Positions 2,703 through 30,042 of a stretch of 43,023 nucleotides of DNA are shown piece after piece. Every line of letters starts with the position of its first letter. Position 1 is the first letter of the stretch. Both the position numbers and the translations under genes were made by a program. The notes beneath the pieces are model-generated. The model saw nothing but the letters and a program-made list of their open reading frames with translations. It ran no database searches and was not told the DNA's origin. The stretch is from a virus, in UHGV virus genome UHGV-0853564; one strand, written 5' to 3'.

Positions 2703-2734
2703 TTGCACACCCCAATATAATAGGGTACTATTCA
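2703..2734 (+). promoter_or_regulatory. promoter-like element TTGCAC-N17-TACTAT with internal TATAAT and AATAG-N4-CTATT dyad
   Basis: ttgcacaccccaatataatagggtactattca, ~25 nt upstream of ATG 2760; near-identical copies at 11659..11690 and (reverse) 22995..23026. Confidence 0.5.
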
Positions 2735-2759
2735 CCTGTAACCTACTGAGGAAACAATT

Positions 2760-3086
2760 ATGCGTAAATTAGTATTAGCTCTGGGGTTTATGTCTTTTGC
2801 TACTTTTGGGGGCCCGTGCGAACAGGTATTTAGTGAATCTGTTCTTATGGCTTCTGGTGTGCTCGATAAAGCCGACCCTACTATTGTAAAGGCATTTAAG
2901 GACTCTACAGTCCGTGAATGTGAGGCTGCCGTAGATGTCGGTAAATCAGGCCTACCTCCGCAGGCCGTAACATATACGGTAATACGTTCGGTAGAGAAAA
3001 ACGGGGACGCGTTTTACAGCCTACTGACAGCCACCCGTCTGCAAATGGTGATGACTGGCTGGGCGATAGGCGCGGAAAGTAAATAG
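2760..3086 (+). CDS. small secreted protein (N-terminal signal peptide), moron gene
   Basis: GAGGA RBS; N-terminus MRKLVLALGFMSFATFGG is signal-peptide-like; opposite strand to flanking tail genes; AT-richer than surroundings. Confidence 0.6.
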   Translation: MRKLVLALGFMSFATFGGPCEQVFSESVLMASGVLDKADPTIVKAFKDSTVRECEAAVDVGKSGLPPQAVTYTVIRSVEKNGDAFYSLLTATRLQMVMTGWAIGAESK

Positions 3087-3151
3087 TCGCCTTTATTTAA
3101 AGGAATCCACTGTGGTTAAATAGGACAAATCCTACACACGAGGACGTAAGC

Positions 3152-4282
3152 ATGGCCCGGAAGAAAATAACCGACGAACAGTTGCAGGAAGAATTGAACG
3201 CCGGTATGAAGAATATCGACATCGCCCGTAAATACGGCGTCTCAGACCGAGTTATTCGTATCCGTAAAGCGAAGCTGGCGAAGAAAGGCGTAGGTCACGG
3301 TCGTGACGTTAGCCATCTTGTGCCGGACGGCTACAAGATTAAAGGAACGTCGTCACTGGTGGACGAGTTCGGCAACACTAAGTTGCAATGGGTTAAGACC
3401 GACACCGACGCCGAACGTCAGGTCGAGTTGATGAAAGCCGTAATCGAGGGCATGAAGTCAGATATTACGCCAGTTGCGCCTGTTAAAGCCTCCCGCACCA
3501 AACGTGATGACAAGCTACTCAATCTTTACACGGTATCTGATTTCCATCTCGGTATGCTGGCCTGGGCCGACGAGAGCGGCGACGACTGGGACATGAAGAT
3601 TGCAGAGGACCTGTTCTCTCGATGGTTCGACGCAGCGTTTCAGAAAGCGCCGGACGCGGGAACGGGTGTTATTAACCTGCTAGGTGACCTTGCGCACTTC
3701 GACAGTCTGGATGCAGTTACGCCAGCGAGTGGTCACGTTCTTGACGCCGATACCCGCTACCAGAAACTTGTACGCTACATGATTCGCATGGTGCGACGTG
3801 TTGTTGATATGGCGCTGGTTAAGCATAAAAATGTTCGCTTGCTTATCGTGCAAGGGAACCACGACGAAAGCGGAATGATTTGGTTAGCTGAAATGTTCAG
3901 TACGCTATACGACAACGAGCCGCGTGTATTCGTCGATACGTCGCCGGATGTTTACAAGATGGTGCAACACGGCAAAACGACATTGTTCTTTACCCACGGA
4001 CATAAAGCGCGCTTCGACGCTATCGAACCGGTTATGATCGCCAAGTTCCGCAAAGCGTTTGGTGAGAGCGTTTACAGCTACGCCCACGTAGGCCACCTAC
4101 ACCATCAGAAGATTGTAGAAAGCCGTAATATGATTGTTGAGCAACACCGCACCTTAGCGGCGAAAGACGCCTACGCCTCTCGCGGTGGATGGATGTCGGG
4201 CCGGAGTGCAAATGTAATTACTTATAGCGCCGAATATGGCGAGGTTGCGCGTTTAACTATTTCACCGGAGATGCTGGGATGA
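3152..4282 (+). CDS. HTH domain fused to calcineurin-like metallophosphoesterase (SbcD/Mre11-like motif set)
   Basis: 376 aa; N-terminal HTH-like segment (NIDIARKYGVSDRVIRIRKAK); motifs SDFHLG, LLGDLAHFD, VQGNHDE, THGH, VGHLHH match metallophosphoesterase motifs I-VI; GAGGA RBS. Confidence 0.8.
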   Translation: MARKKITDEQLQEELNAGMKNIDIARKYGVSDRVIRIRKAKLAKKGVGHGRDVSHLVPDGYKIKGTSSLVDEFGNTKLQWVKTDTDAERQVELMKAVIEGMKSDITPVAPVKASRTKRDDKLLNLYTVSDFHLGMLAWADESGDDWDMKIAEDLFSRWFDAAFQKAPDAGTGVINLLGDLAHFDSLDAVTPASGHVLDADTRYQKLVRYMIRMVRRVVDMALVKHKNVRLLIVQGNHDESGMIWLAEMFSTLYDNEPRVFVDTSPDVYKMVQHGKTTLFFTHGHKARFDAIEPVMIAKFRKAFGESVYSYAHVGHLHHQKIVESRNMIVEQHRTLAAKDAYASRGGWMSGRSANVITYSAEYGEVARLTISPEMLG

Positions 4283-4509
4283 CTTCAAAATACAACCGCA
4301 CAATGACAAATACTCACGGCAGCACTATGACGGTAGACGTTTACGATGTGCTACGCGCCTTCGACATCCGCGACCCGGCATTACAGCACGCATTGAAGAA
4401 GCTGCTGTGTATGGGTCTTCGTGGGCACAAGGACACCGGAACCGACTTAGCGGAAGCAATTGAAAGTCTGGAGAAGTTACGGGAGTATCGAAGCAACATC
4501 GATGAATAA
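4279..4509 (+). CDS. hypothetical 76-aa protein, translationally coupled to the phosphoesterase gene
   Basis: ATGA stop-start overlap with upstream gene; followed by terminator hairpin. Confidence 0.5.
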   Translation: MTSKYNRTMTNTHGSTMTVDVYDVLRAFDIRDPALQHALKKLLCMGLRGHKDTGTDLAEAIESLEKLREYRSNIDE

Positions 4510-10761: not shown

Positions 10762-10841
10762 AGTCAGTATGTCCCCTGGACGTTGGAATCCGGGCCACCC
10801 GGATTTACATGTCAAGAATAAATTATTCCAACATGCAAGGC

Positions 10842-10858
10842 AACTATTCCAGAATATT
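10842..10858. promoter_or_regulatory. imperfect dyad AACTATTCC-AGAATATT, next to TTATTCCAACAT (10823..10834)
   Basis: Shares ACTATTC half-site with promoter elements; both motifs recur at 11591..11617. Confidence 0.35.
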
Positions 10859-11383: not shown

Positions 11384-11590
11384 GCTAGTCCTTATCATTT
11401 AAACATAGAAACGGCGTAATCTCTGCAAACCAGTTACTTTTTACACAAGCAATAGAGTATGGCCCTTCCGAACGCGTCAGCGTAACTACACTCAGGACTT
11501 ACGTCCCGCTCCGTTACCTGCCCGCGCCGCGGTCGCTTGTTCATACTTCACAAGCTCAGGTGGAGCTTAGCACATTTTCAGTGAAAAGTC

Positions 11591-11606
11591 AACTATTCGA
11601 ATAGTT
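11591..11606. promoter_or_regulatory. perfect 16-bp palindrome AACTATTCGAATAGTT (operator-like)
   Basis: Contains both orientations of the GAATAGT half-site; followed by TTATTCCAACAT (11606..11617). Confidence 0.45.
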
Positions 11607-11658: not shown

Positions 11659-11690
11659 TTGCGCACCCCAATATAATAGGGTACTATTCA
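11659..11690 (+). promoter_or_regulatory. promoter-like element TTGCGC-N17-TACTAT (copy of 2703..2734)
   Basis: ttgcgcaccccaatataatagggtactattca, ~24 nt upstream of ATG 11714. Confidence 0.5.
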
Positions 11691-11713: not shown

Positions 11714-11938
11714 ATGCCGATTAGATTTACAAATCAAAAGAAGTCTAGAGATGTACGCCCCGGAGAAAAGGTGCAGGTATTTGACGAGTGGTACTGGGTT
11801 CGTTACATAGATTATCTTGGTGGTAAAAAGCTAAATTTACGTTTGCAGCACGAAAATGAGCCTCTTAGCCCGTTCTATGAAAACGATAAAATAGTCATAA
11901 CCATGCCCGATGATTTGGTGATAGACGTGGAAGTTTAA
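11714..11938 (+). CDS. hypothetical 74-aa protein, moron gene
   Basis: AGGAGG RBS; own promoter-like element and terminator; opposite strand to flanking structural genes; AT-rich. Confidence 0.55.
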   Translation: MPIRFTNQKKSRDVRPGEKVQVFDEWYWVRYIDYLGGKKLNLRLQHENEPLSPFYENDKIVITMPDDLVIDVEV

Positions 11939-12428: not shown

Positions 12429-13504
12429 TATTCCCCTTTCAGATAATCAGCAACACGTTTATCGAGTTCCGCCATCTGTTTAAGCGTGAGCGGATTCCCG
12501 AAACCATCTACAGATATTACGCGAAACTCTTCCGGCGATATACCGCTGTTACGGAAAATCTTACCCCGCACCGGGCCGAGCGCCTGGTCCTGAAACCACG
12601 CCGGTTGTTGTTTCAGGAACTCGTAGTAAGTAGTGTCTGCGCTCACCTGAGTACCGCCGTCCGCACCCTTAGCCGCTCGTTTCGCGCCTTTATCGAGGAA
12701 GTCGAACTCTGAGCTGATTACCGGAGCCGTGGTACTTCGACAGCCAAAATGGGCCGGTGGCATCGGACCTTTTCCAATTTCCCACGTCATTCCGTCTCTG
12801 GCTCTGCAAATTGTACTGGTGCGGCTGTCCAGCGTTGACACCCACTCGTACTTCTCGATGATGTCGTCGTTCTGGCGGTACGTCTCATTGCGGGCTTCAT
12901 TGGATACGTGGGACAGCGCGGTGCGGATTACCGTCGCAGCGTTACGCTCAGAGATGTCCGCCAGCCCACCGGAGCCTACGACATTCTTAACAATCTGCCG
13001 TGTGGTTTGGCCTTGTACGAAACCCATCTTAACGCCAGTCACCAGGCGCGCGACTTCTGTTTCACCCCAGCCATCCATCAGCTTAGTGAAATCGACGGGC
13101 TTGTCACTTAACGATATTGGTTGAAACTCCGCAGCAGCCCATACCTGTTCAGCGGTAGGTGTAACAAATTCAGCGTTAACGTTAGCCGTCAGCGTCTTTA
13201 CGTTCCACTCAGCCTCATATGCCGCCAGTTCCTTAAGGTCTTCTGTCAGCTTTGTTTGCCAGTCAACTGTAAGTCCCGCCAGTGCTTCTTCAAGGTCGCG
13301 TAACAGTTTATTCAGTCGGGCGGTGCTGCGGCCATCATCGCCGAATAACAGCACCTGCCGTTTGATTTCGTCCCGCATTTCCTTAATAAACGGTGTGAGG
13401 TCTTTCACCTCACCGGATGCGGTTCGTTGCAGCCATATCTGGTGGCTGATTAGGGATGTAAGTAAGCTCATAGATAAACCCTGTGGCGCTAAAGTTAATA
13501 GCAT
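12428..13504 (-). CDS. head morphogenesis protein (Mu F / SPP1 gp7-like minor head protein)
   Basis: Motif WVSTLDSRTSTICRARDG...PPAHFGCRST characteristic of Mu-F-like proteins; immediately downstream of portal gene. Confidence 0.7.
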   Translation of the reverse strand: MLLTLAPQGLSMSLLTSLISHQIWLQRTASGEVKDLTPFIKEMRDEIKRQVLLFGDDGRSTARLNKLLRDLEEALAGLTVDWQTKLTEDLKELAAYEAEWNVKTLTANVNAEFVTPTAEQVWAAAEFQPISLSDKPVDFTKLMDGWGETEVARLVTGVKMGFVQGQTTRQIVKNVVGSGGLADISERNAATVIRTALSHVSNEARNETYRQNDDIIEKYEWVSTLDSRTSTICRARDGMTWEIGKGPMPPAHFGCRSTTAPVISSEFDFLDKGAKRAAKGADGGTQVSADTTYYEFLKQQPAWFQDQALGPVRGKIFRNSGISPEEFRVISVDGFGNPLTLKQMAELDKRVADYLKGE

Positions 13505-13514
13505 ACTATAAGAA

Positions 13515-18797: not shown

Positions 18798-18881
18798 CTT
18801 TTCTACTCCGTTCTCGTTGTCGGTGGAGTAAATATAGTAGGGTCGCAGGTAATAGTCAACTAGTCATCGCAGATGATAGAT

Positions 18882-21252: not shown

Positions 21253-21525
21253 TTATTCAACAGCGCCTGTTATCGCTATAAGGCCGGTGTTACCGCGGCG
21301 GCGATACTTACGAATCACCGTTTTAAGTTCGTCGTTGCTACTCTGATGCCCGAAAGTGATAGGCAACTCTTCTCCGCCCGACATCCCGAACTCGGTGTCT
21401 GTCGGTTTGTCCCTCCACCCCTGGATAAAACCGAAACGGTCACGGGTTATGTACCTGTAGTTGTTAGGTAGGGGCAACTCCAGCCCCTCAAAATCAACGG
21501 TAGCGGTGTAGCTGCTAAAATTCAT
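21253..21525 (-). CDS. hypothetical protein
   Basis: Track start is TTG at 21531; first ATG at 21525. Confidence 0.4.
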   Translation of the reverse strand: MNFSSYTATVDFEGLELPLPNNYRYITRDRFGFIQGWRDKPTDTEFGMSGGEELPITFGHQSSNDELKTVIRKYRRRGNTGLIAITGAVE

Positions 21526-21664
21526 AGTCAATTACCCCGAACTCATTGATGATTTGCGCCTTGTAGAAGTTGCCGTTTGACGCCAGGTGGTACGCCTGTG
21601 CCATAGACATCTCACGGTAAGTTGCGGTGCTGTTTTCGAATTCCATAACCATCAAAGTAACCAT
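21515..21664 (-). CDS. small hypothetical protein (49 aa)
   Basis: ATG at 21664 preceded by GAGGAG RBS and conserved leader; below track cutoff. Confidence 0.3.
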   Translation of the reverse strand: MVTLMVMEFENSTATYREMSMAQAYHLASNGNFYKAQIINEFGVIDYEF

Positions 21665-21691
21665 CTTCTGTCTCTCCTCTCGTTCGTGTAA

Positions 21692-21713
21692 ATGAATAGT
21701 AGCCTATTCTATC
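21692..21713 (-). promoter_or_regulatory. GAATAGT dyad element (atgaatagtagcctattctatc) upstream of leftward gene
   Basis: TACTATTCA about 27 nt upstream of ATG 21664 on minus strand, followed by conserved leader catcttctgtctctcctctc (also at 21074). Confidence 0.45.
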
Positions 21714-21764
21714 TTAGCGTGCAAGTAAATTTTATTGGTGTTTGTACTGTCACCACGGGACAGG

Positions 21765-21956
21765 TTACGAGGTCATCCTCTGCAACACATCCCATAAATC
21801 GGTCTCTGCCTCGCGTTTCCTACTCCCAGCGTCGTCCACGCTATAGTAATCCGCAGTTGCGTAGTCCGCGTGTGCCTCTGCAACTGCGATAATCGCATCA
21901 TATAATGATTGCGCTTGTTCTTTAGTAATCATTGTTGCGTCTCCTGCAATAGTCAC
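21765..21956 (-). CDS. hypothetical protein
   Basis: ORF track. Confidence 0.4.
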   Translation of the reverse strand: MTIAGDATMITKEQAQSLYDAIIAVAEAHADYATADYYSVDDAGSRKREAETDLWDVLQRMTS

Positions 21957-22066
21957 TTCGATTGTTGCGTTTGGTGAAAGTGTCGCTTTTTGACGACACT
22001 AATCTAAAGTTGTACGCTGCTGTGTAGCAGCGTAAGTCACTCAGTAAAATCCCAAACTATTGAACA

Positions 22067-22264
22067 TCACACTTCCGGCGGCTCTGGTAGCGGCATCCAG
22101 TGAGTTACATCTTCCCGGTCCACCGTAACCTCCCACGGCTCTATCCAGCTATCCCAATACCCATCACAATCTAACCACATCACCTCAACGTTATCCCCAT
22201 CTGAAACCAGCACATCTTCAAAATCACCCGGCATCCGCTCACTACACTTAATCCACTCGCTCAT
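22067..22264 (-). CDS. hypothetical acidic Trp-rich protein
   Basis: ORF track. Confidence 0.4.
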   Translation of the reverse strand: MSEWIKCSERMPGDFEDVLVSDGDNVEVMWLDCDGYWDSWIEPWEVTVDREDVTHWMPLPEPPEV

Positions 22265-22267
22265 ATC

Positions 22268-22411
22268 TCACCTCGTATTCATCGCATACTGCACACCAGC
22301 TTTCCACGCCCGCCACGCGAGACGCGTCCTAACGTTCAGGTACTCTTTCTTCGAACCCTTGTTAACAGGCAGACCCTCGACGACGGCCCAACGTTCGAAT
22401 GCTTCTCTCAT
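22268..22411 (-). CDS. small hypothetical protein (~47 aa)
   Basis: ATG overlapping upstream stop; coordinates approximate. Confidence 0.25.
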   Translation of the reverse strand: MREAFERWAVVEGLPVNKGSKKEYLNVRTRLAWRAWKAGVQYAMNTR

Positions 22412-22614
22412 AACTCGACCCCCAGAACCTCGCATTCGGAATTGCAGACGAACAAATACTCACGGCAATGGTTTATAACAAATCCGTACTCGCCACGAAT
22501 CTCTACGTCGAACTCATCACCAACAGAGACGCCAAAGTACGCAAGGCTAACGTCCTGGTATCCATTAGGGCATGTTTGTTCAACATCAGTTATACGAATT
22601 CTCATTAACGGCAA
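22408..22614 (-). CDS. hypothetical protein
   Basis: ORF track. Confidence 0.4.
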   Translation of the reverse strand: MPLMRIRITDVEQTCPNGYQDVSLAYFGVSVGDEFDVEIRGEYGFVINHCREYLFVCNSECEVLGVEL

Positions 22615-22790
22615 CCTCCCTCAGAGTCGTCGGCACTAGCATCATGATTCGATGCCGTTCTGGATTTAAATTCCGCGTTGAAACCTAACTTTGTTAAGAC
22701 GCAGTAATGGTCGAATGCTTCGCTTCTGCTTCTTGTTGAATAACTAAATCTTCCACCTACATATACGTCGTAAATTAATTCTTCCATCAC
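22605..22790 (-). CDS. hypothetical protein
   Basis: ORF track. Confidence 0.4.
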   Translation of the reverse strand: MMEELIYDVYVGGRFSYSTRSRSEAFDHYCVLTKLGFNAEFKSRTASNHDASADDSEGGCR

Positions 22791-22963
22791 TTCGCCCCTT
22801 TGAATTTAAAATTGTTGCCGATGAGTTCTATGTCTTTCGCATACAGGAAACCGTAGTGGATTCCGCTTTTTACCTTAACAACGTCATACATTTCTAAGTA
22901 CCATTCTACGAAGTAAAAATCCCTCGTCCCTTTAACTTTAACCAACTGACCCTTCTTAAACAT
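22787..22963 (-). CDS. hypothetical protein, first gene of leftward operon
   Basis: Track start GTG 22972; ATG 22963 with GAGG RBS preferred. Confidence 0.4.
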   Translation of the reverse strand: MFKKGQLVKVKGTRDFYFVEWYLEMYDVVKVKSGIHYGFLYAKDIELIGNNFKFKGAK

Positions 22964-22994
22964 AACCCTCACTCCTCTGTCTCGTTTCGATAAG

Positions 22995-23026
22995 TGAATA
23001 GTATCCTATTATGTTGGGGTGTGCAA
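22995..23026 (-). promoter_or_regulatory. promoter-like element for leftward operon (reverse copy of 2703..2734)
   Basis: Minus-strand reading ttgcacaccccaacataataggatactattca; second GAATAGT at 23029..23035. Confidence 0.5.
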
Positions 23027-23406
23027 GAGAATAGTTACGTTGCCGTTGTGATTCTTCAGGCAGGGTTGTGCCTTTATTCTTATTACTTGGTAACTAAAGG
23101 GCAGGCCTTAAGCCTGCCCAATAATCGTTACATTTTTACGGTTGCGAATCTACGGCACATTAAGAAAATCAGATACTTAAGAGATATGCCGCCGGTGAGA
23201 ATAGAGCTTGCCCAGGGCAACCGGAGATACTTAGGGAGGAAAGTTACGATAATTCTTATGTTCAGTAAACTTTCGCTTAACACTTTGCTTGCGCTGCGCG
23301 CAACTGCGTTTTAAGCGGTTTTACAAGGTGAACAGGAATCAAAGTAACTAAGATATAGAAGCACCTTAAACGAAGATTTCCATAATGTCAATAGGTGCGA
23401 TTATGT

Positions 23407-23435
23407 TTGATTTCCCATTATTCGCAATGTATACT
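23407..23435 (+). promoter_or_regulatory. sigma70-like promoter TTGATT-N17-TATACT for rightward early operon
   Basis: Consensus-like hexamers with 17-nt spacer about 30 nt upstream of first rightward ORF. Confidence 0.45.
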
Positions 23436-23467
23436 TGATCCCGTTAACTGATAATGAGGGTTTGAGA

Positions 23468-23620
23468 ATGGTTACTTTGACAGAAGAACAGTTGAAAGAG
23501 TTGCTGATAGAAGCGTGGTTTAACGGGCATGGCGAGAGCAGATACTGCCCCAATAAATACGGCGCAGCTACAGCGTTCGCACGGGAAACAATTAAGGAGA
23601 TTAAAGATGACACAGAATGA
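23468..23620 (+). CDS. small hypothetical protein
   Basis: ATG with GAGGG RBS; track start 23435. Confidence 0.4.
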   Translation: MVTLTEEQLKELLIEAWFNGHGESRYCPNKYGAATAFARETIKEIKDDTE

Positions 23621-23777
23621 AGTGGCCGAGCGTATCGGGGTTACTCGTCGAACGCTGAATAACTGGTTAAAGAGTGGGAAGTTCCCGGATTGCTGTATTC
23701 GCATTATGGGCCGCCGTCAGCCTGGCACATTTGACCCGGAGAAAGTGGAAGCGTGGATTAAGGAGAACGTGAAATGA
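23607..23777 (+). CDS. small HTH DNA-binding protein (AlpA/excisionase-like)
   Basis: MTQNEVAERIGVTRRTLNNWLKSGKFP is a typical HTH; AAGGAG RBS. Confidence 0.5.
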   Translation: MTQNEVAERIGVTRRTLNNWLKSGKFPDCCIRIMGRRQPGTFDPEKVEAWIKENVK

Positions 23778-24007
23778 CCGAGTTCCAGTCACGCGTATTT
23801 ACGGCAGTCGTTTCATTAACGCGTAAAAAAGGTTCGTGCAGCGTTATGGACTTGCGCCGTAGTTATTTTAGGTACTATAGTTCCGCCATTATTGAAGCGT
23901 CGTTACGTGTGCTGGTTAAATCTGGCGTCGTGAAAAATGTTGGCGGGAAATATAGTGCTGTTGCTGAAGTTCGCGGAATGACCGCTACTTTAGAAGACCT
24001 GGAATAA
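23774..24007 (+). CDS. hypothetical protein ending ...TLEDLE
   Basis: ORF track; ATGA overlap with upstream gene. Confidence 0.45.
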   Translation: MTEFQSRVFTAVVSLTRKKGSCSVMDLRRSYFRYYSSAIIEASLRVLVKSGVVKNVGGKYSAVAEVRGMTATLEDLE

Positions 24008-24064
24008 AAGAAAGCCCCGACGTTAGAGCGCCGAGGCCAAATTACTTGCTGAAGGAAATACAAC

Positions 24065-26305
24065 ATGTCCGATGTAATTTTATCCTACTCGTGGTCTCGT
24101 CGCAACGCGCGGGCGGAGAAAAAGGATATAAACGTCAGAACCACACACACGGCAACACTGGACGACCTGAAAGAGTTAATCCAGCCGCTCGATGTTGTGC
24201 GAGATGGGGTTAACCCGAAGACAGCGCCAGGCTATATTACTGCCGCGTGCGACTCTACGCACAGCACCGTAAAAGACCCGGAAACTGGAGACTTTAAGCA
24301 GGCGCGTAAAGGCTTCTTCTATCGCTGTGATGCGTCTGTAAGCAAATCGTCGCTGGCGTACCTGGATTTCGACAGCGCAACGCCGGAAGAGTACCAGGAA
24401 GCTGTGCGCCTGGTTAAGCGCAGCCGCCAGGCGATGTGCCTCTATACCACGGCATCTCATACCGAGGAGTCACCGCGCTTTCGCGTCGTCATGCCGCTGA
24501 CCCGCCCGGTTGAAGGCGGTGACATCATCCGTGTTCGTCATGGGTTGCTGGAACACTTCTTCAAAGGCATGGGCGCCGACCGCAGCGGGTTTACCCTGTC
24601 GCAGCCGATGTATCTGCCCCCGGTTGGCTCTACCGTTATCTGGTCGCGGCGCAACGACCTGATTGACCCGGACGAATTACTGGAAGGCATCCCCGCCGTT
24701 GACGTTAGCAGCGCATCGGATTACCAGATACCGGAAGAACTGCGCACCGCGTTTACTGATGCGTTCGAAGCACTGGCGTTCGAATACGGCGGCATCATGA
24801 CGCCGCGCGGCCTTAAGATGCCAGCTACGCCGGAACACGCAGAAAACTACAGCGACCCTACGCCGCGCCCGGACGACTTCCTGCTGTGCTTCCCGCGAGA
24901 GGGCTACGAAGCGCCGAACGTAACCATGATTCACGACACCGACATTACGGCAACCGAAGGTATGTCGCCGAAAGAGGTGTGGAAGTATGCGTGCGATGCG
25001 ACCGGGCTGCCGTTCAGTGAAGTCGCCGAGGCTATCGGATGGGGTGCGCGTGAATCTGTTTCATGCAGCCTCGACGACCTGGAAGATGACGAGGACTCAG
25101 AGGAGGACGAGTTACCGGAGCCGGTAAAGGCTGATTTCGTCGTAGAAGGGTACATGCCGTCGGATTGTATCTGGGATATCGTCGGGGAGTCCGGCACGTA
25201 CAAATCATTCTATACGCTGGGGATGATGTACCTTAGCGCCGCCGGATACCGGTTTGCGGGGGCAGATACTCAGCGTTGCCACCATTTCTATATCGACGGT
25301 GAGGGTGGCGCGGCCACACGTACACGTATTGATGCGCTCGCGGCTAAATACGGCGCGGAAGGTAAAGATTATGTACACGTCATCGATATGGGCGAAGTCG
25401 GCAAACTGAAAAGCCTGATTAAGCTAATGCGCGAAACTGCTGGCGGCGAGCCTATCGGCATGGTTGCATTCGACACCCTTAACCAGACGCTGGCCCTGAC
25501 GATTGATAAGTTCGACGAGAACAGTTCATCAACGGCAATCGGTATGGGTAAAGTTATCGCAATCATGAAAGAAGTACGCGACGCGACTAAAGCTGCGGTA
25601 GGCGTTGCCCACCATACGCCGAAGGGGGGAAAGAAAGCCCGCGGCAGCGGGGCGTTGTATGCAGGCGTTGATGTGGAACTGACAATTGAACGTGCAACTG
25701 ACCGTCAGATAAACGTATACCACTCTAAATTTAAGCACGGGCCTCAGCAGAAAACGGTTGGCATGGTTCTGGAGTCGGTACAGTTCCGCGAAGCACCACC
25801 GCCGAAAGAGTACCGTGCAGTTGAGTTCCTCGGTAGCACAGAGGAATACGGCACAATCGTAAACCTCGACCTACCGGAGCCGCACAAGGCGCTTGTGTTG
25901 ATGCCGTGGGGATTCGAGCCGTTCAAGACTGACGAGGAGAAAGAGCGGGAAGAAGGGCTGACAAAGGAAGGTAAAGAAAACGTAAGGAATGCTGTAAAAC
26001 GTGGGAAGGATGAAGGGCGTAAGGAATCAATACTCGCCGCGCTGGAAGACCTGCAACAGTCCGACGACACCGGACGAGGTTTTACCCAACGGCAGATAGT
26101 AGCGAACTCAGGCGACCACGCCATCACCAACCACCATCTTGAGAAGATGCTGAAAGACGGTGAGTTGATGCTTGGATGCGATGTTAACGGTGAAGTTATA
26201 CCTGGTACCTACCGGATACCAGAAAAGATGGGTGACAGATTAAGGCCGAAGACAATATACGAACCGAATGAAATGTTGACAGTGACAGAGGAAGATTTGG
26301 AGTAG
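24065..26305 (+). CDS. primase-helicase: N-terminal AEP primase-polymerase-like domain plus P-loop NTPase
   Basis: AEP-like motifs YLDFD, TASH, RFRVVMP; Walker A GESGTYKS; 746 aa. Confidence 0.65.
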   Translation: MSDVILSYSWSRRNARAEKKDINVRTTHTATLDDLKELIQPLDVVRDGVNPKTAPGYITAACDSTHSTVKDPETGDFKQARKGFFYRCDASVSKSSLAYLDFDSATPEEYQEAVRLVKRSRQAMCLYTTASHTEESPRFRVVMPLTRPVEGGDIIRVRHGLLEHFFKGMGADRSGFTLSQPMYLPPVGSTVIWSRRNDLIDPDELLEGIPAVDVSSASDYQIPEELRTAFTDAFEALAFEYGGIMTPRGLKMPATPEHAENYSDPTPRPDDFLLCFPREGYEAPNVTMIHDTDITATEGMSPKEVWKYACDATGLPFSEVAEAIGWGARESVSCSLDDLEDDEDSEEDELPEPVKADFVVEGYMPSDCIWDIVGESGTYKSFYTLGMMYLSAAGYRFAGADTQRCHHFYIDGEGGAATRTRIDALAAKYGAEGKDYVHVIDMGEVGKLKSLIKLMRETAGGEPIGMVAFDTLNQTLALTIDKFDENSSSTAIGMGKVIAIMKEVRDATKAAVGVAHHTPKGGKKARGSGALYAGVDVELTIERATDRQINVYHSKFKHGPQQKTVGMVLESVQFREAPPPKEYRAVEFLGSTEEYGTIVNLDLPEPHKALVLMPWGFEPFKTDEEKEREEGLTKEGKENVRNAVKRGKDEGRKESILAALEDLQQSDDTGRGFTQRQIVANSGDHAITNHHLEKMLKDGELMLGCDVNGEVIPGTYRIPEKMGDRLRPKTIYEPNEMLTVTEEDLE

Positions 26306-26316
26306 GTAAAAAAGAA

Positions 26317-26333
26317 AGGGGCGTTAAGCCCCT
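26317..26333. terminator. hairpin aggggc-gttaa-gcccct between convergent genes
   Basis: Overlaps the stop codon of the minus-strand XRE gene; U-rich tract follows on minus transcript. Confidence 0.45.
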
Positions 26334-26539
26334 TCACCGAACGCCAGCCACTTGGCGTCTACTTCCAGCACTTCCGCCAGTTTAAACAGCGTCGCCGGGC
26401 GGACGTCCTGAGTTACACCGAGCGCAAGCTGGTTAATCGCGCCCTGGGAAACGCCAGCCAGAACGGCCAGACGGCGCTGGGAGATGCCGAGTTCTTTACG
26501 GCGTTGTTCTACACGGATGCCTAGTTCAGATGGTTGCAT
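26324..26539 (-). CDS. XRE-family HTH transcriptional regulator (Cro/CI-like)
   Basis: LGISQRRLAVLAGVSQGAINQLALG is a canonical HTH; only minus-strand gene in the rightward module; AAGGAG RBS. Confidence 0.7.
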   Translation of the reverse strand: MQPSELGIRVEQRRKELGISQRRLAVLAGVSQGAINQLALGVTQDVRPATLFKLAEVLEVDAKWLAFGEGA

Positions 26540-26566
26540 ATCAATTACTCCTTAGTTAGTTGATAT

Positions 26567-26585
26567 GTGAATAGTACCATATTAA
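26567..26585 (-). promoter_or_regulatory. GAATAGT element upstream of XRE gene
   Basis: gtgaatagtaccatattaa; TACTATTCA about 29 nt upstream of ATG 26539 on minus strand; also readable as TTGATA-N17-TAATTA on plus. Confidence 0.45.
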
Positions 26586-26603
26586 TTATTTTAGAAAAGC
26601 CCA

Positions 26604-26632
26604 TTGACACGTGAATAGTTTGCTATTATAGT
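26604..26632 (+). promoter_or_regulatory. sigma70-like promoter TTGACA-N17-TATAGT with GAATAGT dyad in spacer
   Basis: Perfect -35, 17-nt spacer containing tgaatagtttgctatt; ~30 nt upstream of ATG 26665. Confidence 0.6.
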
Positions 26633-26664
26633 CAGCACATACCAAACGAGAGGAGAGAAACAAA

Positions 26665-26814
26665 ATGACCAATAACCGCAAAGCAAAAATTCTGTTAGGA
26701 CTTGATATTGCCTTTGGGACTAAAGAAACAGCGCGCTACCGGGTAAGCAACAACCGCGTTGGCTTCTTCGACAAGTCCACTGGCCAGTTAGTTAAAACCG
26801 TTAAATATAAATAA
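26665..26814 (+). CDS. small basic protein (49 aa), paralog of 28181..28339
   Basis: GAGAGGAGAG RBS; N-terminus MTNNRKAKILL and RVSNN motif shared with the second copy. Confidence 0.45.
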   Translation: MTNNRKAKILLGLDIAFGTKETARYRVSNNRVGFFDKSTGQLVKTVKYK

Positions 26815-26829
26815 ACAGGAGAAAGAAAA

Positions 26830-27339
26830 ATGTTAGAGAAATTCTTAGTATTACTGGAACGTTTCGTAGTTGCCCATGAACTGATTGCGGCGAACAGTGC
26901 GAAACGTCCTGCGCCCCAAACTGAGCGCGCAGGTGAAATGCTTGTAGACGTGTCGGTTACGGGAGAGGTACTTGAAGTCGACCCAGGCACTGGCGTCGGG
27001 AAAGAAATCCCGGTGGAAGGTGAAGACATCGTCGACACACAACCGGCAGAAGAAGAGAAGCAGAAACGCAATCCACGTAAAGCTAAAGTAGAGGAACCGA
27101 CTCCAGAGCCTGAAGAAGAGAAGGAAGAAGTCGATTACCAGTCTCTGCGCGACCAGATTCAGGCTATTGACGATGCAATTAACGAAGGTCCGAGCGATGC
27201 CGCGTGCGATGATTCCGATGAACTGCTGGAAGAGTTCACCGGTAAGAAGATGAAGATTGCCGCGATTAAAGACGAAGACTTGGCTGAATACCTGGAACGC
27301 CTGACGGCAATCAAGAACAAGTATTTCGAAGAAGAATAA
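26830..27339 (+). CDS. highly acidic early protein (candidate DNA mimic)
   Basis: 169 aa with long runs of E/D (EEEKQKRNPRKAKVEEPTPEPEEEKEEVDYQ, DDSDELLEEF); AGGAG RBS. Confidence 0.6.
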   Translation: MLEKFLVLLERFVVAHELIAANSAKRPAPQTERAGEMLVDVSVTGEVLEVDPGTGVGKEIPVEGEDIVDTQPAEEEKQKRNPRKAKVEEPTPEPEEEKEEVDYQSLRDQIQAIDDAINEGPSDAACDDSDELLEEFTGKKMKIAAIKDEDLAEYLERLTAIKNKYFEEE

Positions 27340-27346
27340 CTATCTG

Positions 27347-27362
27347 GCGGCCTTCGGGCCGC
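27347..27362 (+). terminator. stem-loop GCGGCC-UUCG-GGCCGC with conserved downstream leader
   Basis: Perfect stem with UUCG tetraloop; followed by tttaactgagggtcggaattATG, similar to 30763..30788. Confidence 0.4.
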
Positions 27363-27382
27363 TTTAACTGAGGGTCGGAATT

Positions 27383-27772
27383 ATGAAATACGAAGAAATG
27401 AGCGATTTTGAAATTAATTGTGCGGTGGCAGCCGCATTAGATTTAAATGAACATTTGTTCTTCCCGTCTGGCGTCGAATACCTTGATAGTGATACCGATG
27501 ATTCAGACATGGGGCCCATATGGCAAACAAGAATGCCGTTTGTTAAAGGTTTTAGACCGTATAATGGTAATTTATTTAACCCGTGCAACAACATAGATAT
27601 TGCGTGGCAAATTATTACTCAAAATCATATATCGATTGAATGCGTTACAGTTAACCGGCACACGTTTACGTACCGCGCATATCACTCTGCATCTTTCACC
27701 AAAAGTACGCACGAAAACCCCCTACGCGCCGCGATGATTGTCTTCCTTAAAATGCAGGAGGCAAAGAAATGA
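27383..27772 (+). CDS. hypothetical protein in AT-rich segment
   Basis: 129 aa; markedly AT-rich compared with neighbours. Confidence 0.5.
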   Translation: MKYEEMSDFEINCAVAAALDLNEHLFFPSGVEYLDSDTDDSDMGPIWQTRMPFVKGFRPYNGNLFNPCNNIDIAWQIITQNHISIECVTVNRHTFTYRAYHSASFTKSTHENPLRAAMIVFLKMQEAKK

Positions 27773-28041
27773 TTTACCAACTCTACCGCGCCGTAGACAG
27801 GCGAGATAACACAGAGGCGCTATGGCTGTTGCGTGCACCGTCAGGTGCGCACCAGATGGAAGAGATGGCGTATTTAGGTAAAGTACCGCGGCCTAAAGAT
27901 ATAGGCCGTCACGTGTCGCAGATTAAGCGCACGACTTTTGCCAAACCTGACTTTTATGTCTTCGAGTCGATGTATGGATGGGCCTTACATTGCGACCATA
28001 AGACACGGCATTTAATCGACCAGTGGGAGAACAGGGTATGA
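27769..28041 (+). CDS. hypothetical protein
   Basis: ORF track; ATGA overlaps both sides. Confidence 0.45.
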   Translation: MIYQLYRAVDRRDNTEALWLLRAPSGAHQMEEMAYLGKVPRPKDIGRHVSQIKRTTFAKPDFYVFESMYGWALHCDHKTRHLIDQWENRV

Positions 28042-28184
28042 TTTACTGGGCGATATTTACTTACACTAACGCCACGGCTACAGAGCACAGCCGATACTTG
28101 GACGTAGAGGATGCATACGCAGCATACGATAATCTTGATTTTGATACTTTTGACGATGCTTGGGTGGAGAGGGTAGAAGAATGA
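28038..28184 (+). CDS. small acidic hypothetical protein (48 aa)
   Basis: ATG 28038 overlapping upstream stop; below track cutoff. Confidence 0.3.
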   Translation: MIYWAIFTYTNATATEHSRYLDVEDAYAAYDNLDFDTFDDAWVERVEE

Positions 28185-28339
28185 CGAACCGTAAAGCGCG
28201 TTTTCTATTTGTTAAACGTAACCAGCCTTTTCGAGTAAGCAACTCGACTTGGCTGATCATCTTCAACCGTAGCGGCGACACGTGCGCCTATAAACGCAAA
28301 ACACGTAAAGTTAAATGGGGCGGGAGTTTAAGAGCATGA
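28181..28339 (+). CDS. small basic protein (52 aa), paralog of 26665..26814
   Basis: MTNRKARFLFV...RVSNS; stop overlaps start of nuclease gene. Confidence 0.4.
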   Translation: MTNRKARFLFVKRNQPFRVSNSTWLIIFNRSGDTCAYKRKTRKVKWGGSLRA

Positions 28340-29784
28340 AACTAAAAGAACGCGGCGGCAATAATGATGTACACGCTTTACTGTCGCCGTCTGGTGCTAA
28401 AAAGTGGCTTACATGCAGTGCATCACTGGCCTGCGAGAAAGATATTCCTAACACGTCAGGTAAAGCCGCCGTATTAGGCACGGCTATGCACACGATAGCG
28501 GAGATGCACCTTAACCAGTATATCAAAGGCACTGCGTTGCCGTTAGAGCGTGAGGTCGGCGCTTACGTGCTGGACGAGGGTAAAGGCCAGATTAAGGCGC
28601 TAAACAGTCCGATGAAAGGCGCGGTACTGATTACGGCTGACATGATTGAGCAGGTGCGCAAGTACACCGACTACTGCAAAGAGATTATCGATGTAGCGAC
28701 TTACACCAAACTGGAAATGCGTGTCAATCTTACCGAGGTATTGCATCCTGGGTATATGTTTCGTGTTGCTGGTGAGCAGGGTGATGGCAACGCCGGGGTT
28801 TTTAAAACTGTGGAGACATTCGGAACAGCCGACTTAGTGGCGGTTATAGAAGGCTTTACGGGTGAAAGTAACTCAGCGATGCTCATTATCGGCGACCTGA
28901 AAACTGGGCGGCATCGTGTCGAAGCGAAAGAAAACAAACAGCTTATGCTTTACGCGCTCGGTGTTTATCGCCGACTCAAGAGGCGTTATAACATCACAGT
29001 AGTGCGCCTGGTTATCTTCCAGCCGTATGCTGGCGGAGCGTCTGAGTGGGACATCTCAGTTGAAGGTCTGGAACTGTTCGCCAAGTTCGCACAGAAACGT
29101 GCACTGTTGGCACTCGATGCGTATTTCCGTGGCAAGAAGAACCTGAAAGCGTCGGACTTCAAACCGTCGGTAGATGGTTGTCAGTGGTGTCGGTTCTCTG
29201 AACAGTGCGCCGCGCGTACAAAGACGGTTAACGCTGTGTTGGCGGAAGAACTGGAGGACAATACAGATGTATATCGTACAGCCGTAGAACGTGTGGCTAA
29301 GTTCTGCAACGACGCGGACTATATGAGCGTTTGGGAGGATGTTCAGCCGAGTGATATTCTTAAGTTGCTACCTGACGACACAGATTTACCTAAGAAGCCA
29401 GTGAGAGATGACGACTTTGCGCTGGAACTGACACCGGAGCAACTCGTAGCTGAGTATGAGAAGTTGCCGCTGTTGCGCCAGCACATCGACAAGGTCGAGA
29501 AAGCGATGGCTGCCGCGTTGCATTCCGGTAAGAAAGTGCCGGGGTACAAGCTGGTTGAAGGTCGTCCGGGTAATCGTGCGTGGAAGGACGCCGAGGCGGT
29601 ATACGAGAAATATGGTTACAAGCTGACTAAAGAAGTGCTCATGACGCCAACTGAAGCGGTTAAAGTAATACCGGAAGAAGAACTGAAAGACTTTATTACC
29701 CGTAAGCAGGGCGCACCATGTGTCGCAACGGCGGACGACAAACGTCCTGAATGGAATCAGGTAACAGAGGAGGATTTAGAATGA
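28336..29784 (+). CDS. PD-(D/E)XK nuclease with Cys cluster (Cas4/RecB-like fold)
   Basis: N-terminal LLSPSGAKKWLTCSAS, GDLKTGR motif, C-terminal CQWCRFSEQC Cys cluster; GGGAG RBS before ATG 28336 (track start 28315). Confidence 0.6.
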   Translation: MKLKERGGNNDVHALLSPSGAKKWLTCSASLACEKDIPNTSGKAAVLGTAMHTIAEMHLNQYIKGTALPLEREVGAYVLDEGKGQIKALNSPMKGAVLITADMIEQVRKYTDYCKEIIDVATYTKLEMRVNLTEVLHPGYMFRVAGEQGDGNAGVFKTVETFGTADLVAVIEGFTGESNSAMLIIGDLKTGRHRVEAKENKQLMLYALGVYRRLKRRYNITVVRLVIFQPYAGGASEWDISVEGLELFAKFAQKRALLALDAYFRGKKNLKASDFKPSVDGCQWCRFSEQCAARTKTVNAVLAEELEDNTDVYRTAVERVAKFCNDADYMSVWEDVQPSDILKLLPDDTDLPKKPVRDDDFALELTPEQLVAEYEKLPLLRQHIDKVEKAMAAALHSGKKVPGYKLVEGRPGNRAWKDAEAVYEKYGYKLTKEVLMTPTEAVKVIPEEELKDFITRKQGAPCVATADDKRPEWNQVTEEDLE

Positions 29785-30017
29785 TTCGTAGGATGTTCAG
29801 GGTGCTTGGCGGACTTGTAGCGTTTTTAAGCTACCACTTTATGATGTTGCCGGTTTATTCTCTGCTTTTTCCATTAATAGCCTATCTTGCGATTAAGCAT
29901 AAAACCGTAGAACTGGACGAGTTAATGGAGGTTAAGGAGATGAAGTTTGTTCAGAATTTGGAGTGGCCTTTCGAATACGTATTGATAGTTGAGAAAATAA
30001 CTGGCTGGAAGGGTTGA
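29781..30017 (+). CDS. small membrane protein
   Basis: GAGGAGGA RBS; hydrophobic segments LGGLVAFLSYHFMMLPVYSLLFPLIAYLAI. Confidence 0.45.
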   Translation: MIRRMFRVLGGLVAFLSYHFMMLPVYSLLFPLIAYLAIKHKTVELDELMEVKEMKFVQNLEWPFEYVLIVEKITGWKG

Positions 30018-30042
30018 CACCTGAATAGTTAGCTATTATATT
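30014..30042 (+). promoter_or_regulatory. sigma70-like promoter TTGACA-N17-TATATT with GAATAGT dyad in spacer
   Basis: Same architecture as 26604..26632; upstream of SSB-like gene; palindrome AATACGTATT at ~29965. Confidence 0.55.

What the first reader, a model, noticed from the sequence alone, without database searches (positions are those of the whole stretch)
2703..30042. Genome-wide regulatory element built on a GAATAGT dyad at 8 or more intergenic sites
The heptamer GAATAGT/ACTATTC, usually as AATAG-N4-CTATT within a longer conserved block, occurs at 2703..2734, 10842..10858, 11591..11606, 11659..11690, 21692..21713, 22995..23035 (two copies), 26567..26585, 26604..26632 and 30014..30042. 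All sites are intergenic and 20-60 nt upstream of a start codon. At two sites it fills the spacer of a perfect TTGACA-N17-TATAdT promoter; at others TACTAT could itself be the -10, so orientation and function are ambiguous.
Basis: seen in the sequence. Interest (0 to 1): 0.7.

Follow-up and report, generated by a model that had tools for sequence, protein, structure and literature searches.

The report
Cro-type operator in phage promoters
A 14-base inverted repeat (AATAG-N4-CTATT) sits inside nearly every early and replication-gene promoter of this lytic E. coli phage and is most likely the binding site of the phage's own small 434-Cro-like repressor: a real and conserved regulatory element, but of a familiar kind.

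Summary
The dyad occurs 7 times perfectly (0.02 expected) and 11 times with at most 1 mismatch (0.99 expected). Ten of those 11 lie in the 7.6% of the window that is non-coding.

The window is a Kagunavirus genome (Guernseyvirinae, lytic siphophage). The dyad is the top inverted repeat in every Kagunavirus and Jerseyvirus genome examined, at orthologous promoters. Across orthologues the arms almost never vary (2/80 columns), whereas the 4-bp centre (14/32) and the flanks (77/192) vary freely.

The dyad overlaps predicted sigma-70 promoter elements in four different registers. That argues for a separate protein-binding site, not an RNA polymerase recognition element.

The best candidate binder is the 71-aa XRE protein at 26327..26539 (-). 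Its closest sequence and fold match is phage 434 Cro, whose operators have the same 5+4+5 geometry. Its gene lies between two of the sites.

The likely mechanism is repression of early and middle promoters plus autoregulation. Binding itself is untested.

The motif was already published for a sister phage as a PHIRE 'phage RNA polymerase promoter'. That reading is untenable here, because no phage RNA polymerase is encoded. Interest is modest.

The parts
2703..2734 (+). P_imm, class B promoter-operator: TTGCAC-N17-TACTAT, dyad 2719-2732 overlapping the -10. It drives the imm-like gene (2760) and the phosphoesterase operon.
11659..11690 (+). P_11714, class B promoter-operator: TTGCGC-N17-TACTAT, dyad 11675-11688. 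It drives the 74-aa gene at 11714..11938.
21692..21725 (-). P_21655, class B promoter-operator on the minus strand: TTGCAC-N17-TACTAT, dyad 21695-21708. It drives the DUF7170 gene 21515..21664 and the downstream early and lysis genes.
22995..23026 (-). P_EL, class B promoter-operator on the minus strand, dyad 22997-23010. It heads the leftward block of small early genes (start codon at 22963).
26567..26585 (-). P_hth, the XRE gene's own promoter. The one-mismatch dyad AATAT-N4-CTATT lies at 26570-26583. The G-to-T mismatch creates an extended -10 (TGgTACTAT), and there is no recognisable -35.
   Evidence: invariant in all Kagunavirus loci.
26604..26632 (+). P_rep, class A promoter-operator: TTGACA-N17-TATAGT with dyad 26614-26627 filling the spacer. 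It heads the rightward replication operon and diverges from the XRE gene.
30014..30042 (+). P_ssb, class A promoter-operator: TTGACA-N17-TATATT, dyad 30024-30037. It lies upstream of the ssDNA-binding protein and DNA polymerase genes.
33518..33546 (+). P_33581, class A promoter-operator: TTGACA-N17-TATAGT, dyad 33528-33541. It lies inside the 3' end of the VRR-NUC gene, upstream of 33581.
18831..18864 (-). Class C promoter: TTGACT-N17-TATATT with the one-mismatch dyad ACTAG-TTGA-CTATT (18851-18864) centred on the -35. It follows a strong terminator and heads the nin-like small genes that run into the terminase genes. Jerseyvirus carries the mismatch in the other arm.
11564..11597 (-). Class C promoter toward the spanin genes: TTGACT-N17-TAAGCT with the one-mismatch dyad AATAG-TTGA-CTTTT (11584-11597) centred on the -35.
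   Evidence: The same hexamers are listed as host promoter HP1 for fBC-Eco01.
13497..13510 (.). One-mismatch dyad AATAGCATACTATA between the portal and head-morphogenesis genes. The whole spacer is conserved in both genera, so membership is uncertain.
26324..26539 (-). Gene for the 71-aa XRE / 434-Cro-like HTH protein (stop codon included). It is the proposed dyad-binding repressor.
   Evidence: Pfam HTH_3, E 2e-12. 434 Cro is the best PDB sequence match and the best fold match.
23607..23777 (+). Gene for a 56-aa HTH_17 (excisionase-type) protein, the rival candidate binder. The true start is 23607, not 23529.

Best explanation
AATAG-N4-CTATT is the operator of a phage-encoded dimeric 434-Cro-type repressor, the 71-aa XRE protein at 26327..26539 (-).

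**Where the operators sit.** One operator is built into the core of each host-RNA-polymerase (sigma-70-type) promoter that drives non-structural genes:
- the leftward early genes (P_EL, P_21655);
- two rightward small-gene promoters that face leftward late operons (P_imm, P_11714);
- three promoters of the replication operon (P_rep, P_ssb, P_33581).

**How it would work.** After infection these promoters fire. As the repressor accumulates it occupies the operators.

**Graded sites.** The repressor's own promoter carries a one-mismatch operator whose mismatch creates an extended -10. This predicts weaker, later autoregulation. Two promoters with one-mismatch operators centred on the -35 (nin-like/terminase and spanin) would be the least sensitive.

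**Shown versus inferred.**
- Shown: the sites, their statistics, their conservation, their overlap with promoter-like hexamers, and the nature of the protein.
- Inferred: that the hexamers are used promoters, that this protein binds, and that binding represses.
For: **Statistics**
- 7 perfect copies against 0.02 expected.
- 11 copies with at most 1 mismatch against 0.99 expected.
- 10 of those 11 lie in the 7.6% of the window that is non-coding; for the perfect sites alone, P(at least 6 of 7) is about 1e-6.

**Conservation**
- It is the top inverted repeat in all 6 other Kagunavirus genomes or genome-length records (6-8 perfect copies) and all 3 Jerseyvirus genomes (4-5 perfect copies).
- In 8 orthologous promoter sets the arms vary in 2/80 columns, against 14/32 for the centre and 77/192 for the flanks (Fisher p about 1e-7).
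- The left arm never varies (0/40), although it lies in the promoter spacer, where sigma-70 reads no bases.

**Register.** The distance from the -35 to the dyad differs between promoters:
- 4 nt in class A;
- 7 nt in Jerseyvirus P_imm and in L057/L078;
- 10 nt in class B;
- dyad centred on the -35 in class C.

The spacing also slips 4 to 5 nt among P_rep orthologues while the dyad stays fixed. The dyad is therefore a module of its own that always overlaps core promoter elements.

**Promoter context.** The three class A promoters are the only 11/12 consensus matches in 20000-38000.

**The protein**
- Pfam HTH_3, E 2e-12.
- The best PDB sequence match is 434 Cro: same length, end-to-end alignment, E 5e-7.
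- The AF2 model has pLDDT 84, and its best fold match is 434 Cro, followed by the 434 repressor N-terminal domain.
- From established knowledge, 434 and P22 operators have the same geometry (ACAAG-N4-CTTGT, TTAAG-N4-CTTAA). The Gln that opens the recognition helix and reads position-1 adenine in 434 is invariant in all four aligned XRE homologues (Q32).

**Position of the gene.** It is flanked by two sites 44 bp apart: its own promoter and the divergent P_rep.

**XRE against HTH_17**
- All Kagunavirus loci keep the operators unchanged where the HTH_17 recognition helix diverges (L024, L039), while the XRE helix is invariant.
- phiEap-2 and the L057/L078 lineage show no HTH_17 in the sequence held, yet keep AATA(S)-N4-(S)TATT dyads in the orthologous promoters and in front of their XRE gene.
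Against: - No binding, transcription-start or expression data exist for this phage group, so every functional step is inferred.
- Kagunavirus and Jerseyvirus share the same operator, although their XRE proteins are only 52% identical and differ at 4 of 6 recognition-helix positions (QGAINQ vs QSLITH). HTH_17 is 80-89% identical between the genera, with an identical helix in part of the Kagunaviruses.
- Perfect AATAG-N4-CTATT dyads and HTH_17 have the same phyletic distribution among the full genomes examined.
- Class B promoters match the sigma-70 consensus at only 7/12 positions.
- The ortholog sets were collected with a 1-mismatch filter, which slightly inflates arm conservation.
- All lineage comparisons are confounded with phylogeny.
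Confidence: 0.55

Rival explanations
1. The dyad is an operator, but the binder is the 56-aa HTH_17 (excisionase-type) protein at 23607..23777. Two monomers would sit on the inverted half-sites.
For: - HTH_17 is present in every Kagunavirus and Jerseyvirus genome, which carry perfect dyads. It is undetected in TS6, Cornellvirus SP-031 and phiEap-2, which lack them or have degenerate ones.
- It is far better conserved between the two genera than XRE, matching the identical operator.
- It is the first recognisable gene of an early-looking operon whose promoter (23407-23435) has no dyad.
Against: - Kagunavirus loci L024 and L039 have a divergent HTH_17 recognition helix (GVSPMTLNRW vs GVTRRTLNNW), yet their dyads are unchanged.
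- phiEap-2 and L057/L078 keep AATA(S)-type dyads in the same promoters with no HTH_17 detected.
- The protein has no dimerisation module. From established knowledge, excisionase-type winged helices usually bind arrays of direct repeats.
- Its gene is about 600 bp from the nearest dyad and is not flanked by sites.
- It has no significant match among solved structures.
Confidence: 0.13
2. The repeat is simply the phage's own promoter consensus, read directly by RNA polymerase. This could be host sigma-70 holoenzyme, a phage-modified holoenzyme, or a phage-encoded RNA polymerase as published for the sister phage fBC-Eco01. No dedicated DNA-binding regulator would be involved.
For: - PHIRE analyses of fBC-Eco01 (7 sites, consensus tgAATAGTa-ccTATTat-T) and Golestan (7 sites) called these 'phage promoters'.
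- The right arm always overlaps a -10-like hexamer (TATAGT, TACTAT or TATTAT).
- Promoters copied within a genome can share sequence through common descent.
Against: - No RNA polymerase or sigma-factor domain was found in any ORF tested, and all large ORFs are otherwise accounted for.
- The element is a true palindrome whose left arm lies in the non-contacted spacer, yet is invariant.
- Its register relative to the -35 takes four values.
- TS6 and Cornellvirus keep orthologous TTGACA/TTGCAT-N17-TATAGT promoters with a degenerate dyad, so the promoters do not need it.
Confidence: 0.1
3. The dyad is the binding site of a conserved enterobacterial host transcription factor that the phages exploit to couple early transcription to host physiology.
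For: The same dyad serves phages of Escherichia and Salmonella, and a near-variant serves Enterobacter phage phiEap-2. The phage XRE proteins differ between these groups.
Against: - I know of no E. coli regulator with an AATAG-N4-CTATT consensus. This rests on memory, not on a test.
- The site variants track phage lineage (AATAC-N4-GTATT in L057/L078, ATTA(S) in TS6 and Cornellvirus) and not host genus: TS6 and Cornellvirus infect Salmonella, like Jerseyvirus, but lack the dyad.
- A fitting phage-encoded regulator lies next to the sites.
Confidence: 0.05

Closest known systems
Phage 434 Cro / CI with operators OR1-3 and OL1-3 (and the related P22 Cro/C2 system)
   Same: - The candidate binder is a single-domain, 71-aa, five-helix Cro/CI-type HTH. 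Its best sequence and fold match is 434 Cro.
- The operator is a 14-bp inverted repeat with conserved 5-bp arms and a variable 4-bp centre. This is the geometry of 434 (ACAAG-N4-CTTGT) and P22 (TTAAG-N4-CTTAA) operators, from established knowledge.
- The operators overlap sigma-70 -35/-10 elements.
- The regulator gene sits at a divergent promoter pair and appears autoregulated.
   Different: - No CI partner, integrase or bistable switch is present, and the phage group is regarded as strictly lytic.
- The operators are single and dispersed, one per promoter at 8-10 promoters around the genome, not two clustered triplets.
- The half-site sequence is AATAG.
- Binding is untested.
Dispersed repressor regulons of temperate phages: P1 C1 operators, mycobacteriophage L5 gp71 'stoperators', phiC31 conserved inverted repeats
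   Same: One phage-encoded repressor has many operator copies scattered over the genome, mostly at or just downstream of early promoters (from established knowledge).
   Different: - Those phages are temperate, and the repressor maintains lysogeny.
- P1 and L5 sites are asymmetric.
- Here the sites are symmetric, sit inside the core promoter, and the phage has no lysogeny module.
PHIRE 'phage-specific promoters' reported for Kagunavirus fBC-Eco01 (PMC9825357) and Golestan (PMC7203180)
   Same: These are the same sequences at the same genome positions: TGAATAGTACCCTATTATAT, TGAATAGTATCCTATTATGT and TGAATAGTACCATATTAATT match the window's 2715-2734, 22995-23014 and 26568-26587 on one strand or the other.
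   Different: - The papers assign them to a phage-encoded RNA polymerase, which these genomes do not encode.
- They do not note the dyad symmetry, the embedding in sigma-70 promoters, or a link to the Cro-like protein.
Restriction-modification controller (C) proteins and their C-boxes
   Same: These are small XRE-type dimers that bind palindromic boxes overlapping their own promoter, with graded-affinity sites giving timed autoregulation. C.AhdI and C.BclI are among the fold matches.
   Different: - C proteins control one operon next to an R-M system.
- Here the sites are genome-wide, and the phage methyltransferase gene (34063..34746) is 7.5 kb from the XRE gene and has no XRE gene beside it; the nearest dyad (P_33581, 33528) heads the operon that contains it.

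Membership tests
Cro/CI-type (XRE, HTH_3) repressor-operator system | The regulator carries a Cro/CI-type helix-turn-helix domain. | tested here: met
   Pfam HTH_3 at E 2.3e-12, above the curated cut-off. phmmer to 434 Cro gives E 5e-7 over the full length.
Cro/CI-type (XRE, HTH_3) repressor-operator system | Five-helix fold of the 434 Cro / lambda-repressor-like DNA-binding domain. | tested here: met
   The AF2 model (pLDDT 84) has five helices. The Foldseek top hits are 434 Cro (2cro; TM-score 0.73 by query length, 0.79 by target length; 40% identity) and the 434 repressor N-terminal domain.
Cro/CI-type (XRE, HTH_3) repressor-operator system | The operator is a 14-18 bp inverted repeat with conserved arms and a free centre. 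| tested here: met
   AATAG-N4-CTATT has 7 perfect copies. Arms vary in 2/80 columns against 14/32 for the centre.
Cro/CI-type (XRE, HTH_3) repressor-operator system | Operators overlap the core elements of the regulated promoters. | tested here: inconclusive
   All dyads overlap predicted -10 or -35 hexamers with 17-bp spacing. The promoters themselves are predictions, and no transcription-start data exist.
Cro/CI-type (XRE, HTH_3) repressor-operator system | The regulator gene is adjacent to its operators and autoregulated. | tested here: met
   The gene at 26327..26539 is flanked by the dyads at 26570 (its own promoter) and 26614 (the divergent promoter). Autoregulation itself is inferred.
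Cro/CI-type (XRE, HTH_3) repressor-operator system | The protein binds the operator as a dimer. | not testable with these tools
   This needs EMSA or footprinting, or a protein-DNA co-fold.
Lambdoid immunity region (CI + Cro + tripartite OR/OL, lysogeny) | A CI-type repressor with a cleavable C-terminal domain, an integrase, and clustered triple operators. | tested here: not met
   The gene map and Pfam scans show no such genes. The operators are single and dispersed.
Sigma-70 promoters (host RNA polymerase) | TTGACA and TATAAT-like hexamers 16-18 bp apart, upstream of a gene on the same strand. | tested here: met
   - Class A matches 11/12 at 26604, 30014 and 33518.
- Class C matches 10/12 (18831-18864) and 9/12 (11564-11597).
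- Class B matches only 7/12 (TTGCAC-N17-TACTAT), but the TTG and the TAnnnT are conserved at 17 bp in both genera.
- Use in vivo is untested.
Phage single-subunit RNA polymerase promoters (the published PHIRE reading) | The phage encodes its own RNA polymerase. | tested here: not met
   No RNA polymerase domain was found in any ORF tested. All large ORFs were assigned to structural, packaging or replication functions.
MerR-type spacer-binding activators | An overlong 19-20 bp spacer that the regulator must distort. | tested here: not met
   Spacers are 17 bp, or 18 in some P_rep orthologues.

The most novel reading that the evidence does not exclude
A whole subfamily of strictly lytic phages may time its gene expression with one 434-Cro-like repressor and a graded set of operators.

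- Perfect dyads sit in the seven early and replication promoters.
- A one-mismatch dyad that doubles as an extended -10 sits in the repressor's own promoter.
- One-mismatch dyads centred on the -35 sit in two later promoters.

Operator quality and position would then set the order of shut-off.

Kagunaviruses (E. coli) and Jerseyviruses (Salmonella) share the operator. The repressor of one should therefore act on the other, giving immunity-like cross-interference between lytic phages and a ready-made orthogonal repressor/promoter set.
Probability: 0.25. Interest if true: 0.55.

Novelty: new member of a known kind. Interest (0 to 1): 0.35.

Why it matters
**Phage biology and therapy.** Guernseyvirinae (Kagunavirus, Jerseyvirus) are among the phages most often isolated and proposed for therapy against E. 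coli and Salmonella, yet their transcription programme is unstudied. Recognising the repeat as a Cro-type operator inside host-type promoters has three consequences:
- It corrects the published 'phage RNA polymerase promoter' reading.
- It gives a concrete map of 8-10 early and middle promoters.
- It names one small protein whose removal or overproduction should reset the whole programme.

**Engineering.** The promoters and operator are compact, strong and probably switchable parts.

**Limits.** Conceptually this extends a textbook mechanism to a lytic phage family. It does not reveal a new one.

Tried and rejected
1. **RNA or DNA hairpin function.** The dyads fold only to -1.5 to -2.5 kcal/mol. 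The arms are invariant and show no compensatory changes. In promoter orientation the dyad lies upstream of the predicted start. Rejected.
2. **Known RNA families.** Rfam found none in the window.
3. **tRNAs.** None found.
4. **Phage RNA polymerase, sigma factor or further DNA-binding regulators.** Pfam scans of 60 ORFs found only HTH_3, HTH_17 and a sub-threshold NinH-like match.
5. **Prophage or host origin of the XRE/operator region.** blastn against 5,426 complete E. coli genomes found only a CRISPR spacer.
6. **Clean recognition-helix / operator covariation.** The operator differs only where XRE differs:
   - AATAG-N4-CTATT in Kagunavirus, Jerseyvirus and L046;
   - AATAC-N4-GTATT in L057/L078;
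   - AATAG-N4-GTATT in phiEap-2;
   - ATTA(S) or degenerate in TS6 and Cornellvirus.

   Position 5 is mixed within lineages, and everything is confounded with phylogeny, so this is suggestive only.
7. **Literature.** Searches for transcriptomes or promoter mapping in this group found nothing.
8. **Resemblance of the second motif (GAATAA-N-TTATTC) to the ArgR box, and of ACTAGTTGACTATT to the trp operator.** The geometry does not fit. These were recalled from memory and not pursued.
9. **Technical failures.** Searches failed on coordinates and were repeated.

Full report
**What the window is.** The 43,023-bp window is a Kagunavirus genome, or nearly all of one, opened inside the tape-measure gene. 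Kagunavirus belongs to the Guernseyvirinae, lytic E. coli siphophages. The window is about 90% identical to phages SZH-1, XY2 and Bas70-76, and more distantly related to several hundred Salmonella Jerseyvirus genomes.

I mapped genes by tblastn of the 81 SZH-1 proteins, supplemented by Pfam and PHROGs. The layout is:
- Three leftward blocks of structural, packaging and lysis genes.
- A leftward block of small early genes (22963 down to about 20242), running on into the holin and lysozyme genes.
- A rightward operon carrying HTH_17 and the helicase-primase (23468-26305).
- A single leftward XRE gene (26327-26539).
- A long rightward replication operon (26663-36806).
- Two short rightward units (2760-4509 and 11714-11938).

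No RNA polymerase, sigma factor, CI-type repressor or integrase was detected.

- 7 perfect copies against 0.02 expected.
- 11 copies with at most 1 mismatch against 0.99 expected.
- With 2 mismatches the count falls to background, 24 against 15.7.

An unbiased count of all inverted repeats with 5-bp arms and 0-8 bp gaps puts this dyad first in the window and in two other Kagunaviruses. Ten of the 11 sites lie in the 7.6% of the window that I score as non-coding. For the perfect sites alone, the chance of at least 6 of 7 doing so is about 1e-6.

**Anatomy.** Read in the direction of the gene that follows, the sites fall into three architectures.

- **Class A** (26604, 30014, 33518; + strand): TTGACA-N4-AATAG-N4-CTATT-ATAGT. 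This is a near-consensus sigma-70 promoter (11/12) with a 17-bp spacer. The dyad fills the spacer and its last T starts the -10. These three are the only 11/12 matches in 20000-38000.
- **Class B** (2703 +, 11659 +, 21725-21692 -, 23026-22995 -): TTGCAC-N10-AATAG-nnTA-CTATT-CA. TACTAT lies 17 bp from TTGCAC, so the right arm and half of the centre form the -10.
- **Class C** (18864-18831 -, 11597-11564 -): one-mismatch dyads (ACTAG-TTGA-CTATT and AATAG-TTGA-CTTTT) whose centre is the TTGA of a TTGACT -35, followed 17 bp later by TATATT or TAAGCT.

The XRE gene's own promoter (26583-26570, -) is class-B-like but reads AATAT-GGTA-CTATT. The single mismatch turns the sequence into TGgTACTAT, an extended -10, and there is no -35.

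In Jerseyvirus the orthologue of the 2703 promoter has a fourth register: TTGCAT-N7-AATAG-N4-CTATT-AT, with -10 TATTAT.

Start codons follow the dyads by 25-59 nt.

**Conservation.** I fetched 6 further Kagunavirus, 3 Jerseyvirus and 3 more distant Guernseyvirinae genomes, plus 64 IMG/VR loci around XRE homologues.
- Every Kagunavirus has 6-8 perfect dyads and every Jerseyvirus has 4-5. They sit at orthologous promoters.
- In eight orthologous sets the arms vary in 2 of 80 columns. The left arm varies in 0 of 40.
- The 4-bp centre varies in 14 of 32 columns. The 12 bp on either side vary in 77 of 192 (Fisher p about 1e-7).
- In P_rep the distance from the -35 to the dyad slips between 4 and 5 nt while the dyad stays fixed.

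The left arm lies in the promoter spacer, where sigma-70 holoenzyme makes no base-specific contacts. Its invariance, its mirror symmetry with the right arm and the changing register together mean that something other than RNA polymerase reads it.

One caveat applies. The sites were collected with a filter of at most 1 mismatch. The ortholog sets were essentially complete, so the resulting bias is small.

**Who binds?** Only two recognisable sequence-specific DNA-binding proteins are encoded.

The first is the 71-aa XRE protein:
- 434 Cro is its best match among all solved structures by sequence: E 5e-7, aligned end to end, same length.
- 434 Cro is also its best match by fold: AF2 model pLDDT 84, top Foldseek hit 2cro, then the 434 repressor N-terminal domain, with P22 C2 further down.
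- From established knowledge, 434 and P22 operators have exactly this 5+4+5 geometry.
- The Gln that opens the recognition helix is invariant in all four aligned XRE homologues.
- Its gene sits between two sites, 44 bp apart centre to centre.

The second is a 56-aa HTH_17, excisionase-type protein (true start 23607).
- In its favour: it is found only in the two genera with perfect dyads, and it is more conserved between them than XRE, 80-89% against 52%.
- Against it: Kagunavirus loci L024 and L039 have a divergent HTH_17 helix but unchanged dyads, while the XRE helix is invariant throughout the genus.
- Against it: phiEap-2 has 4 AATA(S)-N4-(S)TATT sites against 0.18 expected, with no HTH_17 in its genome.
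- Against it: the L057/L078 lineage has AATAC-N4-GTATT at its P_rep, at its XRE promoter and at two further promoters, with no HTH_17 in the 12.7 kb held.
- TS6 and Cornellvirus (XRE 41-43% identical) have lost the dyad. They show only ATTA(S)-type or degenerate sites in otherwise conserved promoters.

I therefore favour XRE and keep HTH_17 as a live rival.

**How it most likely works.** The class A promoters are consensus-strength and need no activator. A dimer sitting on the spacer and -10 (classes A and B) or on the -35 (class C) would exclude RNA polymerase.

The sites mark every promoter of non-structural genes. No dyad with at most 1 mismatch lies in the non-coding stretches upstream of the tail-chaperone, scaffold or terminase genes.

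The simplest model is a Cro-like shut-off of early and middle transcription as the repressor accumulates. Autoregulation would act through a deliberately weakened operator. The two -35-centred, one-mismatch promoters would be the least sensitive.

The sites, their statistics, their conservation and the nature of the protein are shown. Promoter use, binding and the sign of regulation are inferred.

**What is already known.** The same sequences were reported for the sister phage fBC-Eco01 as seven PHIRE 'phage RNA polymerase promoters', with consensus tgAATAGTa-ccTATTat-T. Seven unnamed PHIRE promoters were reported for Golestan.

Neither paper notes the dyad, the sigma-70 context or the Cro-like protein, and these genomes encode no RNA polymerase. 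I found no transcription-start or expression data for the group.

The repeat itself is therefore not new. Reading it as a dispersed Cro-type operator regulon appears to be new, but it belongs to a well-known kind.

**Verdict.**
- The finding is a real, strongly non-random, conserved regulatory element.
- The mechanism is familiar, and interest is modest (0.35).

Noticed in passing
window 10815-10862 and 11606-11645: A second repeat system, distinct from the dyad, is made of GGAATA(A/G) units.

- On the minus strand the first cluster reads GGAATAttcTGGAATAGttgccttgcATGTTGGAATAAtttattc, just upstream of the scaffold gene.
- The second reads gtATTCCAgtTATTCCA...ATGTTGGAATAA, upstream of the spanin promoter.
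- The 12-mer ATGTTGGAATAA occurs in both clusters.
- The block is conserved in all Guernseyvirinae genera examined, including TS6, Cornellvirus and phiEap-2, which lack the AATAG dyad. In Cornellvirus and phiEap-2, GAATAA-N-TTATTC is the top inverted repeat.
- It may be a late-gene activator site, an iteron set or a pac-related site.
   Followed up: partly
window 26342-26376: A CRISPR spacer in E. coli strain 2017.09.02CC (NZ_AP025214.2, 4038605-4038639) is 100% identical to 35 nt of the XRE gene. It was the only hit of this region in 5,426 complete E. coli genomes.
   Followed up: no
window 30050-30075: The 5' leader of the ssDNA-binding protein gene contains a hairpin (cactggCCGGGcagattCCCGGagtaaac). 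It is conserved almost base for base from Kagunavirus to Jerseyvirus and phiEap-2, while the surrounding sequence diverges. It may be a translational operator or a processing site.
   Followed up: no
window 22964-23468: A 505-nt non-coding stretch lies between the divergent leftward early promoter and the rightward promoter at 23407-23435 (TTGATT-N17-TATACT, no dyad). It contains a strong hairpin at 23099-23119 and has no Rfam match. Its function is unknown.
   Followed up: no
window 2703-2760 versus L002, L008, L009 and L010: The class B promoter-operator block in front of the imm-like gene is conserved among Kagunaviruses, but the leader and the first gene behind it differ between phages. 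The promoter module appears to mark a mosaic boundary. TerL (55% identity to SZH-1) and the tailspike (only the N-terminus conserved) are also mosaic.
   Followed up: no
window 21692-21892 (+) and 23529-23777 (+): These look like annotation artefacts.

- The + strand ORF starting at the ATG of ATGAATAGT (21692) overlaps the promoter, has an odd Ser/Arg-rich composition and has no family match.
- The HTH_17 gene starts at 23607 (56 aa), not at 23529. A 50-aa ORF (23468-23620) precedes it.
- In phage Schulenburg the imm-like gene is annotated with a start upstream of its own promoter.
   Followed up: partly
window 1-1824 and 42538-43023: The tape-measure gene is split across the two ends of the window. 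Residues 1-608 of 769 map to 1824..1, and the open frame at 42538-43023 probably supplies the remainder. The window is therefore a whole circularly permuted genome, or nearly so.
   Followed up: partly
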